From the human T2T-CHM13v2.0 reference genome, Homo sapiens, in NCBI RefSeq assembly GCF_009914755.1, contig NC_060933.1: a stretch of DNA of 64,000 nt; one strand, 5' to 3'. Positions 42,146 to 54,050 of this stretch are shown here, in pieces. Each line of letters opens with the position of its first letter. Position 1 is the first letter of the stretch. The notes beneath the pieces were generated by a model, which was not told where the DNA came from, did no database searches, and was given only the letters and a program-made list of their open reading frames with translations. The translations under genes were made by a program, and so were the position numbers.

Positions 42146-42955
42146 TCTGTTCATATCCTCATTTATGCAGCCAAAAAACACATGAAAAAATGCTCATCAT
42201 CACTGGCCATCAGAGAAATGCAAACCAAAACCACAATGAGATACCATCTCACACCAGTTAGAATGGCGATCATTAAAAAGTCAGGAAACAACAGGAGATG
42301 GAGAGGATGTGGAGAAATAGGAACACCTTTACACTGTTGGTGGGACTGTAAACTAGTTCAACCATTGTGGAAGTCAGTGTGGCGATTCCTCAGGGATCTA
42401 GAACTAGAAATACCATTTGACCCAGCCATCCCATTACTGGGTTTATACCTAAAGGATTATAAATCATGCTGCTATAAAGACACATGCACACGTATGTTTA
42501 TAGCAGCACTATTTATTCACAATAGCAAAGACTTGGAACCAACCTAAATGTCCAACAACGATAGACTGGATTAAGAAAATGTGGCACATATACACCATGG
42601 AATACTAGGCAGCCATAAAAAATGATGAGTTCATGTCCTTTGTAGGGACATGGATGAAACTGGAAAGCATCATTCTCAGCAAACTATTGCAAGGACAAAA
42701 AACCAAACACCGCATGTTCTCACGCATAGGTGGGAATTGAACAGTGAGAACACATGGACACAGGAAGGGAACATCACACACCGGGGACTGTTGTGGGGTG
42801 GGGGGAGGGAGGAGGGATAGCATTAGGAGATATACCTAATGCTAAATGACAAGTTAATGGGTGTAGCACACCAGCATGGCACACGTATACGTATGTAACA
42901 AACCTGAACGTTGTGCACATGGACCCTAAAACTTAAAGTATAATAATAATAAAAA
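42146..42955 (+). mobile_element. 5'-truncated L1PA3/4 with 14-bp 5' inversion
   Basis: ORF2 C-terminus ([36 protein letters not shown]), 3'UTR and polyA; TSD aaaagtt[c/a]taagctg at 42131-42145 and 42956-42970. Confidence 0.92.
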
Positions 42956-43024
42956 AAAAGTTATAAGCTGGAAGGAGTGCTTAAATCCAGGAATGCTTAA
43001 ATCCTGCCATTGAGACCTTTCAAC

Positions 43025-47860: not shown

Positions 47861-50715
47861 TTATAATTATTTAAGTATTTTAAATTTTAAAAATAAATAA
47901 ACAAGGATTGTAAGAACAACAAACCCTGAAATTAAATACAGGCAGAAACAGATAAATATAGCTATATATCAAATGATAACATATTCACATCAAGATAAGA
48001 ATTAGGTCAAGTTATTTATGTTTATTTTTTAGACTTTTAGGTTCAGGGGTGCATTTGCAGGTGGTGTTACATAGGTAAATTGCATATTGTGGGGCTTTGG
48101 TGTACAGAATTTTTGTCACTCAGGTGATAAGCATAGTACTTGGTAGTTTTTTGATCCTCACCCTCCTCTCACCTTCCACCCTCAAGCAGGCCCTGGTGTC
48201 TATTGTTCCCTTATTTGTGTCCATGCATACTTAATATTTAGCTCCCATTTATAAGTGAGAACATGTGGCATTTGGTTTTCTATTCCTGTGTTAATTTGGT
48301 CGGGATAATAGCCTCCAAGTTCCATCCATGTTCCTGCAAAGGACATGATCTCATAGTATTAGATGGTGCATATGTACTATATTTTCTTTATCCAGTCTAT
48401 TGCTGATAGACATCTAGGTTGATTCTAGGCCTTTGTTGTTGTGAATAGTGCTGTGATAAACATACATGTGCATGTGTCTTTATGATAAAATAATTTATAT
48501 TCCTTTGGTATATTCCCAATAATAGGATTGCTGGATTGAATGGTAATTCTGTTTTAAGTTCTGAGAAATCTCCAGACTGCTTTCCACAGTGGCTGAACTA
48601 GCAGCGTGTAAGCGGTCCCTTTTCTCTGCAAACTTGCCAGCATCTATTGTTATACTTTTTTACTTTTTAGTTATAGCCATTCTGACTGGTGTTAGATGGT
48701 ATCTCATTGTGGTTTTGATCCATGTTTCTCTAATGATTTGTTATGTTGAGGATTTTCTTCACATGCTTGTTGGCTGTGTGTATGTCTTCTTTGGAAAAAT
48801 GTCTGTTCTTGTTCTTTGCCCTCTTTTTAATGGGACTGTTTGTTTTTTGCTTATTAATTTGTTCAGGTTCCTTATAGATTCTGGATATTAGACCTTTGCT
48901 GTATGCATAGCTTGCAAATATTTTCTCCCATTCTGTAGATTTTCTGTTTACTATGTTGGTAATTTCTTCTGCTGTGCAGAAGTGCTTTAATTTAATTAGG
49001 TCCTGTTTGTCAATTTTTGTTTGTGTTGCCGTTGCTTTTGGTGTCTTCGTCACAAAGCCTTTGTCAGTGCCTATGACCAGAATGGTATTTCCTAGTTTTT
49101 TTTTTCTAGTGTTTTGGTAGTTTTACGTTTTACAGTTAAGTCTTTAGCCCATCTTGAGTTTTTTGTACATGGTGAAAGGAAGGAGCCCAGCTTCAGTATT
49201 CTGCATATAGCTAGCCAGTTACCCCAACTCCAAAGGGAGCTCTTTTTCCATTGCTTTTGTCAACTTTATTAAAAATCAGATAGTTTTAGGTGTATGGCCT
49301 TATGTCTGGGTTACCTAACCTGTTCCATTGGTCTGTGTTTCTGTTTTTGTACCAGAATTGTGCTGTCTTGTTTACTGTAGCCTTGTAGTATAGCTTCAAT
49401 TTGAGTAACGTGATGGCATCATCTTTGTTCTTTTTGCTTACGATTGCTTTGGCCATTAGGGCTCTTTTTTAGTTCCATATGAATTTTAGAATAGTTTTTC
49501 TCTAATTTTGTGGAAAAATGCTATTGGTAGTTTGATAGGAACAGCATTGAATCTGTAAATTGCTTTGGGTAGTATGGCCACTTTAACAATATTGATTCTT
49601 CCTATCCATGAGCATAGAATGTTCTTCCATTTGTTTGTGTAATCTCTTATTTCTCTGAGCAGTGTTTTGTAATTCTCATTGTAAAGATCTTTCATCTCCC
49701 TGGTTAGCTGTATTTCTAGGTATTTAATTTTTTGTGGCTATTGTGAATGGGATTTCATTCTTAATTTGGCTCTCAGCTTGGACGTTTTTGGTGTATAGAA
49801 ACACTACTGATTTTTGTACATTGATTTTGTATTCTGAAACGTTGCTGAAGTTGCTTATCAGCTTTTGGATGAGACTACTGGGTTTTCTAGGTACAGGATC
49901 ATATCATCTGCAAATAGGGATAGTTTGAGCTCCTTTTTTCCTATTTGGATGTCTTTTATTTCCTACTCTTCCCTGATTGCTTTGACTAAGAATGTTAGTA
50001 CTACTTTGAATAGGAATAGTGAGAGTGGCATCCTTGTCTTGTTCCAGTTGTCAACGAGAATGCTTCCACCTTTGCCCGATCAATATGATGTTAGCTGTGG
50101 GTTTGTCATAAGATGACTCTTATTATTTTGAGGTATGTTATTCAAGCCTAGTTTGTTGAGGATGTTTAACATAAGGTGATGTTGAATTTTATGTAAAGCC
50201 TTTTCTGTGTCTGTTGAAATGATCATGTGGTTTTTGTTTTTAGTTCTGTTAATCTAATGAATCACATTTATTGATTTGCACATGTTGAACCAGCCTTGCA
50301 TCCTAGGGATGAAACCTATTCGATCATGGTGGATTAGCTTTTTGGTGTGCTGCTGGATTCAATTTACTAGTATTTTGTTGAAGATTTTTTACATCTATGT
50401 TCATCAAGGATTTGGGCCTGAAGTTTTCTTTTTTGTTGGTATGTCTCTGCCAGGTTTTAGTATGAGGATGATGCTTGTCTCATAGAATGTGTTGGAGAGG
50501 AGTTCCTCCTCTCCAATTTTTTGGAATGGTTTCAGTAGGAATGGTACCTACTCTTCGTTATATGTCTAGTAGAATTTGGCTGTGAATCTGTCTGGGCCAG
50601 GACATTTCCTTGTTGGTAGGCTTTTAAGTACTGATTCAGTTTTGGAACTTTACTTGTTATTGATCCGTTCACAGTTTCAATTTCTTCCTGGTTCAATATA
50701 GGGAGGTTGTATGTT

Positions 50716-52369
50716 GTTGTTTTTTTTTAATTTATAAGGAAAAGAAATTTATTGGGCTCACAATGCTGCACGCTGTACAGGAAGCATGGCATTGACATCT
50801 GCTTCTAGTAAAAACCTCAGGAAGCTTCCACTCGTGGTGGAAGGTGAAGGGGAAGCATATGTGTCACATGGCAAGAGAGAAAGCAACAGAGAGACAGGAG
50901 GGATACCCACACTCTTTTAAACAATCAGCTCTTGCATGAACTAATAAAGTGAGAACTTACTCATTAGTGGTAAGATAACACCAAGCCATTCATGAGGGAT
51001 CCACCCCTATGATCCAAACACCTCCCACCAGGCCCCATTTCCAACATTGAAAATCAAATTTCAACATCAGATTTGGAGAGGAAAAATAGCCCAAATGTAT
51101 CACCCATTAAATCCAAATGAATAAAATGCCCATTGTAAATATTGCACAGAATTTGCACAGAAGGTATGCTATGGTTTGAATGTTTTTTCCCCTCCAAAAC
51201 TCATGTTGAAATTTGGTTGCCATTGTGGCGGTGATGGGAGGTGGAAATTTGGGGAGGTGATTAGGCCATAAGGGCTCCACCCTCATGGGTGGGATTAAGG
51301 CCATTTATTTTTTATTATTATACTTTCAGTTCTAGGGTACATGTGCACAATGTGCAGGTTTGTTACATATGTATACATGTGCCATGTTGGTGTGCTGCAC
51401 CCATTAACTCGTCATTTACATTAGGTGTATCTCCTAATGCTATCCCTCTACCCTCCCTCTACCCCAAGACAGGCCCCAGTGTGTGACTTTCCCCACCCTG
51501 TGTCCAAGTGTTCTCATTGTTCGATTTCCACCTATGAGTGAGAACATGCGGTGTTTGGTTTTCTGTCCTTGTGATAGTTTGCTCAGAATGATGGTTTCTA
51601 GCTTCATCCATGTCCCTACAAAGGACATGAACTCATCCTTTTCTATGGCTGCCTAGTATTCCATGGTGTATATGTGCCACATTTTCTTAATCCAGTCTAT
51701 CATTGATGGACATTTGGGTTGGTTCCAAGTCTTTGCTATTGTGAATAGTGCCTCAATAAACATACGTGTGCATGTGTCTTTAAAGCAGCAAGATTTATAA
51801 TCCTTTGGGAATATGCTCAGTAATGGGATGGCTGGGTCAAATGGTATTTCTAGTTCTAGATCCTTGAGGAATCACCATACTGTCTTCCACAATGGTTGAA
51901 CTAGTTTACAGTCCCACCAACAGTGTAAAAGTGTTCCTATTTCTCCGCATCCTCTCCAGCACCTGTTGTTTCCTGACTTTTTAATGATTGCCTTCTAACT
52001 GGTGTGAGATGGTATCTCATTGTGGTTTTGATTTGCATTTCTCTGATGGCCAGTGATGATGAGCATTTTTTCATGTGTCTGTTGGCTGCACAAATGTCTT
52101 CTTTTGAGAAGTGTCTGTTCATATCGTTTGCCCACTTTTTGATGGGGTTGTTTGATTTTTTTCTTGTAAATGTGTTTAAGTTCTTTGTAGATTCTGGACA
52201 TTAGCCCTTTGTCAGATGGGTAGATTGTAAAAATTTTCTCCCATTCTGCAGTTTGTCTGTTCACTCTGATGGTAGTTTCTTTTGCTGTGCAGAAGGTCTT
52301 TAGTTTAATTAGATCCCATTTGTCAATTTTGGCTTTTGTTGCCATTGCTTTTGGTGTTTTAGTCATGAA
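50716..52369 (-). mobile_element. L1PA5-like 5'-truncated insertion with 3' transduction (MST LTR fragments)
   Basis: L1 51305-52369, MST(+) 51167-51304, spacer, MST(-) 50729-51102 and polyT, all inside TSD ggaggttgtatgtt (50702-50715 and 52370-52383). Confidence 0.85.
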
Positions 52370-53579
52370 GGAGGTTGTATGTTTTTAGGAATTTATCCAT
52401 TTCTTGTAGGTTTTCTAATTGATCTACATAGAGGTGTTCATAATAGTCTCTGAGGGTTTTTTTAAATTTCTGTGGACTCCCCCTTTATTTTTGTAATGGC
52501 CCCCTTGTTATTTCTGATTGTATTTAGTTGGATCTTCTCTCTCTTTTTTTCTTTTTAGTCTAGTTAGCAGTCTATCAACCTTAATTATTCTTTCTCAAAT
52601 AAGCAATTCTGGTTTTGTTTTTCTTTTTATGGTTTTTCATGCCTTAATTTCATTTAGTTCAGTTCTGATTTTGTTTATTTCTTGTCCTCTGTTAGCATTG
52701 GAGTTGGTTTGCTCTTGTTTTTCTAGTTCCTTTAAGTGTAATGTTATGATGTTAATTTGAGATCTTTCTAACTTTTTGATGTGGGCATTTAACGCTATAA
52801 ACTCTCATCTTAACACCACTTTAGCTGTGTCCCAGAGATTCTGGGATCTTGTATTTTGGTTTTCATTAGTTTCAAAGAATTTCTTGATTTCTGCTTTAAT
52901 TTCATCCTTTACCCAAAAGTCATTCAGGAGCAGCTTGTTTAATTTTCATGTAATTCTAGGGTTTCAAATTGTTTTCTTTGTTTTGATTTTTACTTTTATT
53001 GCATCGTGGTCCAAGAGTGTGATTGGTATGATTTTGTTTTGCTTTTGCTTTTTTAACTTGCAGAGAATTGTTTTATGACAAATCGTGTGGTTGATTTTAG
53101 AGCATGTGCCATGTGCAGATGAAAAGAATGTATACTATGTTGTTTTGGGGCAGAGAATTCTGTAGATGTCCATTAGGTCTATTTGGTCAAGTGTCGAGTT
53201 AAGGTTCTGAATATACTTAATAATTTTCTGCCTTGTTGATTTGTTTAACATTGTCAGTGGAGTGTTGAAGTCTTCTACTACTATAGTGTGGTTATCTAAG
53301 TCTCTTAATAGGTCTCTAAAAACTTATTTTATGAATCTGAGTGCTTCAGTGTTGGGTGCATATGTATTTAGGATAGTTAAGTCTTCTTATTGAATTGAAC
53401 CCTTTACTATTATGTAATGCCTTTCTTTGTCTTTTTTGATCATTTTTGGCTTAAAGTCTGTTTTGTCTGAAATTAGCATTCCCGCCTTTTTTGTTTGTTT
53501 GTTGTCCATTTCCTTGGTAGATTTTTTTCTCCATTGCTTTACTTTGAGCCTACATGTGTCATTGCATGTGAGATGTGTC

Positions 53580-54050
53580 TGTTATGGGAACACCAAGGGT
53601 TCAGTTTAGGTCCTGCAGCTCACTGCACAGAAAGCCAATCACTGAAACAATGAGTGTTGCCAGGGAAGGAACACTGACCATCTTAAATCCGTCTCTCTGA
53701 CCAACTAAAATTAGGTGTTTATATAGCAGAAATGTACCAGCAGGAAAACAGGAATTCAGGAATTAAAGAGGGGCAAGGCAGAGGAGTTGGTCATCAGGAA
53801 GCAGGTGGTTAGTTAGGCATTCATGATGGATGAGGGGTCTGATGTCTTATTTTCTAGAAGTGGTAATCTAGTAAGTTTCAGTTCCTTGATGCTATCTGGA
53901 AGGACTGATAGTTGGTTTCCTGAGAAAGGAATTCAGATAAGACAAATGTAACTTCCTCAAGTTTCAAGCCCCGGGCTAGGGGGATCAATTTATATGTTCT
54001 TTCAAAAGAAACTATAACATCAGTTCTATGGGACAATTGGGTTGGTTTCA
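53580..54050 (-). mobile_element. ERV1 solo LTR (LTR26/LTR8-group-like)
   Basis: 'tgttatgggaacaccaagggttc...aaggaattcagataagac...gttggtttca'; 4-bp TSD tgtc/ggtc. Confidence 0.7.

What the first reader, a model, noticed from the sequence alone, without database searches (positions are those of the whole stretch)
50702..52383. L1-mediated 3' transduction of ~580 bp, polyadenylated at an MST LTR signal
Seen on the minus strand, in order: TSD; 5'-truncated L1PA5-like sequence (52369-51320); its A-rich tail; part of an MST LTR; a ~65-bp unique spacer (51103-51166); a second MST LTR cut ~20 nt after its AATAAA (50753-50748); a new polyA (50728-50716); and the TSD ggaggttgtatgtt. The host L1 is continuous across the TSDs. 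Known: L1 read-through mobilises downstream flanks. Inference: these LTRs never inserted here but were copied from a donor locus, and the spacer barcodes the source L1.
Basis: partly seen in the sequence, partly recalled or inferred. Interest (0 to 1): 0.7.

Follow-up and report, generated by a model that had tools for sequence, protein, structure and literature searches.

The report
Jumping-gene copy with vanished parent
A LINE-1 jumping gene on chromosome 9 carries 579 bases copied from the X chromosome, where no parent LINE-1 sits today, likely because that parent was lost from the population long ago; this is a clean example of a known kind of event, not a new mechanism.

Summary
A 14-bp target-site duplication frames a 1,668-bp insert: a 5'-truncated L1, an A-rich tail, 579 bp of non-L1 DNA and a second poly(A) tail 20 nt after an AATAAA. 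The older host L1 is contiguous across the site. The only close donor found is chrX:21,407,457-21,408,035 (558/579 identical, no gaps). There both MST-type LTRs are complete and have their own 5-bp TSDs, so chrX is the original. The first LTR runs unbroken across the junction, which falls exactly on a TT/AAAA endonuclease motif. This is a 'parentless' 3' transduction, a class described in dogs and primates. Most likely (0.8) the source L1 sat at that motif on a haplotype that was later lost. A template jump from a cellular RNA to L1 RNA is not excluded (0.1). No sibling was found. Divergence of 3.6% suggests roughly 15-25 Myr (rate recalled). New member of a known kind; interest 0.3.

The parts
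52370..52383 (-). 5' copy of the target-site duplication (14 bp exact). Three further A's on its outer side give a TTTTT/AG-type endonuclease cut site, so the true TSD may be up to 17 bp.
51320..52369 (-). 5'-truncated primate L1 (end of ORF2 plus 3' UTR); L1PA5-like by recalled 3' UTR characters; 1-nt microhomology at the 5' junction
51307..51319 (-). internal A-rich tail, inferred to be the source L1's own tail
51167..51306 (+). transduced: first 140 of 342 bp of donor LTR1 (MST-type, recalled), antisense to the L1; the other 202 bp exist only on chrX
51103..51166 (.). transduced: 64-bp unique spacer carrying the inner half of each LTR's 5-bp TSD; a 106-bp query around it hits only chr9 and chrX
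50729..51102 (-). transduced: donor LTR2 (MST-type, recalled), sense to the L1, cut 46 bp before its end
50748..50753 (-). AATAAA of LTR2, the poly(A) signal used; same hexamer at this place in the donor and in 5 of 8 sibling LTRs examined
50716..50728 (-). terminal poly(A) tail, absent from the donor
50702..50715 (-). 3' copy of the target-site duplication
49000..50701 (-). older host L1 (about 80% identical to its nearest copies), downstream side of the insertion; outer limit not mapped
52384..53580 (-). older host L1, upstream side; residues next to the TSD match ORF2p 410-438; outer limit not mapped

Best explanation
A 579-bp stretch of the X chromosome was copied into chromosome 9 behind a truncated L1, likely by read-through from a source L1 that once sat at the X site and was likely lost from the population afterwards. 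Shown: the insert has a TSD, two A tails and a cut 20 nt after the second LTR's AATAAA; chrX is the original; chrX now carries no L1, and the junction lies on a TT/AAAA motif. Inferred steps: (1) a full-length L1PA5-age element inserted at that motif inside LTR1 on one X haplotype, about 15-25 Myr ago; (2) its transcript ran past its own weak poly(A) signal, through 140 nt of antisense LTR1 and the spacer, and was polyadenylated at LTR2's signal; (3) target-primed reverse transcription put a 5'-truncated copy into an older L1 on chr9; (4) the chr9 copy persisted in the lineage leading to this genome while the source allele was lost by drift or selection.
For: TSD, tails and host continuity. 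Donor 558/579 identical with sharp ends: 7 of 40 flanking bases match on each side. LTR TSDs on chrX 5/5 and 4/5. LTRs align end to end with sibling copies. No net indel at the junction: 19 of 28 siblings have the donor's length over +-30 nt, the rest differ by -8 to +6. The donor has A where 27 of 28 siblings have T, which makes TTTT/AAAA exactly at the junction; TTAAAA occurs 24 times in 15 kb there, 0.0016 per base. Ages agree: L1 part 26/1011 non-CpG differences from its relatives' majority, against 12 chr9-derived (up to 17 with the unresolved sites) of 579 in the transduced part (Fisher p=0.17 for the per-branch comparison). Missing parents are common in print: 17 of 18 and 24 of 27 dog cases; 23 of 80 validated primate cases had no donor L1 fragment within 5 kb (passages).
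Against: The source L1 was not observed, and only one human genome could be searched. The TT/AAAA motif separates this reading from a random junction but hardly from a jump guided by A-microhomology: 24 of 115 A4+ runs nearby are also TTAAAA. No sibling transduction was found, though each repeat-rich search scored only 40 candidates. Substitutions are lopsided, 12 chr9-derived against 4 chrX-derived (p=0.08). The published parentless cases are mostly still-polymorphic young insertions, not events of this age.
Confidence: 0.8

Rival explanations
1. No L1 ever sat on chrX here. L1 reverse transcriptase started on a polyadenylated cellular RNA ending at LTR2 and jumped, at the AAAA, onto the 3' tail of an unrelated L1 RNA (template jump or RNA ligation), giving a chimera that mimics a transduction.
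For: The donor is an unscarred empty site. The junction has A-microhomology. A CpG island lies about 15 kb upstream in the transcript's sense (chrX about 21,422,600-21,423,400), recalled as the MBTPS2 promoter, and could give a divergent transcript. The transduced RNA would fold a strong hairpin (z = -4.7) about 80 nt downstream of the junction, which could stall the enzyme.
Against: The chimeras I recall from the literature put the cellular RNA 5' and L1 3' (U6-L1; recalled, paper not held), the reverse of this case. No transcript through the donor was shown. The gene name was not confirmed by tools (negative). Lost parents are a documented and frequent explanation.
Confidence: 0.1
2. True 3' transduction, but the source L1 had fixed and was later removed precisely by recombination between its two TSD copies, restoring the empty site.
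For: Would leave exactly the unscarred site seen.
Against: Precise deletion is recalled as rare, and it would need a second sweep to be the allele in this genome. Loss of a never-fixed allele needs no extra event.
Confidence: 0.06
3. DNA-level copying (segmental duplication, gene conversion or break repair), or independent insertion of the LTRs on chr9, with the L1 arriving separately.
For: None beyond the absence of the L1 at the donor.
Against: One TSD frames L1 plus LTR pieces. The copy ends at a poly(A) signal with a non-templated tail. No LTR remnant lies on the L1's 5' side. The outer LTR ends and TSD halves exist only on chrX. The donor's downstream 604 bp are single-copy.
Confidence: 0.02

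Closest known systems
L1-mediated 3' transduction (Moran 1999, Goodier 2000, Pickeral 2000, Szak 2003: seen only as reference entries; signature described in passages of PMC3024322, and PMC4862182)
   Same: TSD - L1 - first A tail - flank - poly(A) signal - second A tail - TSD; the flank maps to one other locus that lacks the second tail
   Different: The source locus has no L1; the cargo is two pieces of old LTRs rather than unique sequence or exons
'Parentless' 3' transductions (PMC7980453, PMC13141329, passages; class 1 of PMC4862182, passage)
   Same: Transduced DNA maps to a site with no adjacent L1, explained by a source allele absent from the genome examined
   Different: Those cases are young, dimorphic insertions whose parent probably still segregates. 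This one is about 3.6% diverged, so the parent is probably extinct in humans.
T2T-CHM13 transduction catalogue (bioRxiv 10.1101/2021.07.12.451456, passages)
   Same: Same genome, same class: 183 high-confidence L1 3' transductions reported
Chimeric retrogenes formed by template switching or RNA ligation, such as U6-L1 (recalled; Buzdin papers seen only as reference entries)
   Same: Two unrelated RNAs joined in one TSD-flanked insertion, no parent locus
   Different: Order reversed here (L1 5', cellular 3'), and the join is at the L1's natural tail on an endonuclease motif

Membership tests
L1 3' transduction | TSD encloses both L1 and the extra DNA | tested here: met
   14-bp exact TSD
L1 3' transduction | A-rich tail after the L1 and a second, non-templated tail after the extra DNA | tested here: met
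   the donor continues as LTR where chr9 has the tail
L1 3' transduction | poly(A) signal shortly upstream of the second tail | tested here: met
   only AATAAA/ATTAAA in the 579 nt, ending 20 nt before the cut
L1 3' transduction | extra DNA maps to another locus that is the original | tested here: met
   chrX, 558/579 identical; complete LTRs with own TSDs
L1 3' transduction (with surviving parent) | a longer L1 of the same subfamily and strand directly upstream of the donor DNA | tested here: not met
   no L1 3' end in 16 kb upstream; the one L1 piece found in 26 kb is 81% identical and downstream
Parentless 3' transduction | donor is an unscarred site with no adjacent L1 | tested here: met
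Parentless 3' transduction | parent L1 present at the site in another haplotype or species | not testable with these tools
   no relatives held for this genome
L1PA5 subfamily | diagnostic 3' UTR characters against the subfamily consensus | not testable with these tools
   no repeat library; label recalled. Divergence 2.6% non-CpG from relatives fits an element younger than L1PA6, given as about 27 Myr in PMC5860796 (passage)
MST (MaLR) solo LTR | multi-copy LTR of about 340-430 bp, TG...CA ends, 5-bp TSD | tested here: met
   342 and 421 bp, TG/CA ends, 5-bp TSDs, end-to-end siblings at 76-80%; subfamily name itself recalled
Template-switch chimera | donor RNA exists without L1 and no L1 was ever at the donor | tested here: inconclusive
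   no L1 now; past presence and transcription not testable

The most novel reading that the evidence does not exclude
The insertion is not a transduction at all but an L1-made chimera: reverse transcriptase copied a cellular RNA ending at an LTR poly(A) site and jumped onto an L1 RNA's tail. If so, part of the 'parentless transduction' class never had a parent, and transduced tags can point to source L1s that did not exist.
Probability: 0.1. Interest if true: 0.6.

Novelty: new member of a known kind. Interest (0 to 1): 0.3.

Why it matters
For this locus, little: no gene is annotated in the window and the cargo is LTR debris. Its value is as a well-resolved fossil. It records a once-active L1 allele on the X that no longer exists in this genome, and locates it to the base. 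Collected genome-wide, such old parentless transductions would let one count how often active L1 sources were lost while their offspring persisted, and test lost parent against template jump. It also shows an LTR of a family dated to about 75 Myr (Table 1 of PMC1794541) still providing a working poly(A) signal tens of millions of years later.

Tried and rejected
Sibling transductions: none. The spacer query gave 2 of 2 candidates, chr9 and chrX. The last 102 bp gave no other hit above 88% among 40 scored of 1,259. Whole LTR1 gave only chr9 at high identity among 40 scored of 6,101. The donor's downstream 604 bp are single-copy, so no longer transduction was seen. Close sister L1: none; the best of 29 relatives shares 3 of the 26 chr9 differences. 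Source L1 further upstream with a deletion: no L1 3' end in 16 kb. Editing signature: none of the 12 chr9-derived changes is A>G or G>A on the sense strand, so no sign of ADAR or APOBEC action despite the hairpin. Naming the chrX gene: Pfam M50 search of the genome and a PDB search of the 25-residue exon were both negative; MBTPS2 stays recalled. A 20-residue host piece gave no PDB hit, so host continuity rests. Literature: listings showed no title or abstract start about this locus, and one search returned no paper. That does not show it is absent from print, since the T2T supplement and Szak 2003, Pickeral 2000 and Buzdin 2003 could not be read.

Full report
1. The observation. Read on the minus strand, the region is: host L1, TSD, truncated L1 (52369-51320), A-rich tail (51319-51307), 579 bp of non-L1 DNA (51306-50728), poly(A) (50728-50716), TSD, host L1. 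The TSD is a 14-bp exact repeat found only at 50702 and 52370 in the window; about 9e-5 such matches are expected by chance in the space searched. The empty site reads CCT/AAAAAC, a near-canonical L1 endonuclease target. The host is an older L1, about 80% identical to its nearest copies. Searching each flank separately gave 39 non-self hits each; 3 loci occur in both lists (C3:16.97 Mb, C9:118.53 Mb, C23:73.57 Mb), and in 3 of 3 the two flanks abut exactly. The upstream flank matches ORF2p residues 410-438. So nothing was lost or added at the target beyond the TSD.

2. The donor. The non-L1 part matches one other place over its whole length: C23 (chrX) 21,407,457-21,408,035, 558 of 579 bases, no gaps. 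The other 38 scored loci are about 76-79% family matches to LTR2 (40 scored of 8,195 candidates). A 106-bp query on the spacer finds only chr9 and chrX. Similarity stops sharply: 7 of 40 bases match beyond either end. On chrX both LTRs are whole: LTR1 is 342 bp with a 4/5 TSD, LTR2 is 421 bp with a 5/5 TSD. They align end to end with sibling copies (8 siblings for LTR2, the first 10 of 28 for LTR1). Chr9 holds only the inner TSD halves and lacks the outer 202 bp of LTR1 and the last 46 bp of LTR2. ChrX is therefore the original, and the LTRs never inserted on chr9. The LTRs are head-to-head. Only LTR2 is in the L1's sense; it supplies the only AATAAA/ATTAAA in the 579 nt, ending 20 nt before the cut. 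Five of 8 siblings have the same hexamer there.

3. The missing parent. There is none. Blast of window 49,001-54,000 against 26 kb of chrX finds no L1 3' end in the 16 kb upstream; the one L1 piece is 81% identical and 4 kb downstream. LTR1 runs on across the junction without a scar. Of 28 sibling copies (29 non-self loci fetched, the chr9 copy set aside), 19 have the donor's length over +-30 nt and the rest differ by -8 to +6. At the junction the donor has an A where 27 of 28 siblings have T, which makes TTTT/AAAA, and the copied DNA begins within those A's. TTAAAA occurs 24 times in the 15 kb upstream (0.0016 per base), so a random junction would rarely land on it. But 24 of 115 A4+ runs are TTAAAA, so the motif does not separate an L1 insertion site from a jump guided by A-microhomology.

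4. Age. Chr9 and chrX differ at 21 of 579 sites (3.6%, 95% interval 2.3-5.5%). Counting sibling bases, 12 changes fall on the chr9 branch, 4 on the chrX branch and 5 are unresolved; the imbalance is not significant (p=0.08). The L1 part differs at 26 of 1,011 non-CpG sites (2.6%) from the majority of its 29 closest fetched relatives, whose own mean is 2.6%. The two parts thus look equally old (Fisher p=0.17), as one insertion event requires. With recalled hominoid rates this is about 15-25 Myr, younger than L1PA6 (about 27 Myr; passage of PMC5860796) and in line with the recalled label L1PA5. The MST family is dated to about 75 Myr (Table 1 of PMC1794541), so the LTRs were long inactive when copied.

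5. Mechanism. Most likely (0.8): a full-length L1 inserted at the TT/AAAA in LTR1 on one X haplotype. Its RNA read through its own signal to LTR2's AATAAA, was reverse-transcribed at a nick in the older L1 on chr9 and was truncated after about 1.65 kb. The source allele was then lost. The structure, donor, direction and empty donor site are shown; the source L1, read-through and loss are inferred. Rival (0.1): a template jump from a cellular RNA onto an L1 tail. A CpG island about 15 kb upstream (recalled as the MBTPS2 promoter, not confirmed) and a strong predicted hairpin between the two LTR heads (z -4.7) keep it alive, but no transcript was shown. Rival (0.06): precise deletion of a fixed parent. 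DNA-level copying (0.02) is contradicted by the shared TSD and the tail.

6. Comparison with what is known. The layout matches the published signature of 3' transduction (passages of PMC3024322 and PMC4862182). The missing parent matches 'parentless' transductions: 17 of 18 in PMC7980453 and 24 of 27 in PMC13141329 (dog; passages), and 23 of 80 validated ape and macaque cases with no donor L1 fragment within 5 kb in PMC4862182 (passage). Those are young polymorphic events; this one is old. The T2T repeat paper catalogued 183 high-confidence L1 3' transductions in this genome (passages). Szak 2003, Pickeral 2000 and Buzdin 2003 were seen only as reference entries; they may describe old parentless human cases.

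7. Verdict. A real feature, correctly read in its anatomy, with the donor now located and one prediction overturned. It is a new member of a known kind, with no gene nearby on chr9 and no functional cargo. Interest 0.3. The open point, lost parent or template jump, is decidable from primate assemblies.

Noticed in passing
L002:2402-2873 (chrX about 21,408,359-21,408,830): Alu-like sequence with a 145-bp unit repeated 3.2 times head to tail at 96% identity, 330 bp upstream of the donor junction; looks like a recent internal tandem triplication.
   Followed up: partly
window 51044-51086 and 51184-51226: The 5' ends of the two head-to-head LTRs form an inverted repeat; the transduced RNA is predicted to fold a long hairpin (-58.9 kcal/mol, z -4.7). 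Reverse transcription passed it without rearrangement.
   Followed up: partly
window 42160-42957: A second youngish truncated L1, 91% identical to the transducing L1, on the opposite strand about 8.3 kb away: an inverted L1 pair.
   Followed up: no
window about 53585-54050: By eye, another LTR-like insertion (TG...CA) interrupts the same host L1 upstream of the finding, followed by an 8-bp tandem duplication.
   Followed up: no
L013:8600-9400 (chrX about 21,422,600-21,423,400): CpG island with a short plus-strand exon-like ORF at 21,423,036, recalled as MBTPS2 exon 1; the donor lies about 15 kb upstream of it.
   Followed up: partly
chrX 21,401,127-21,403,762 (L011): Two more LTRs related to LTR2 (about 70%) and an older L1 3' end (81%) cluster 4-7 kb downstream of the donor.
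   Followed up: no
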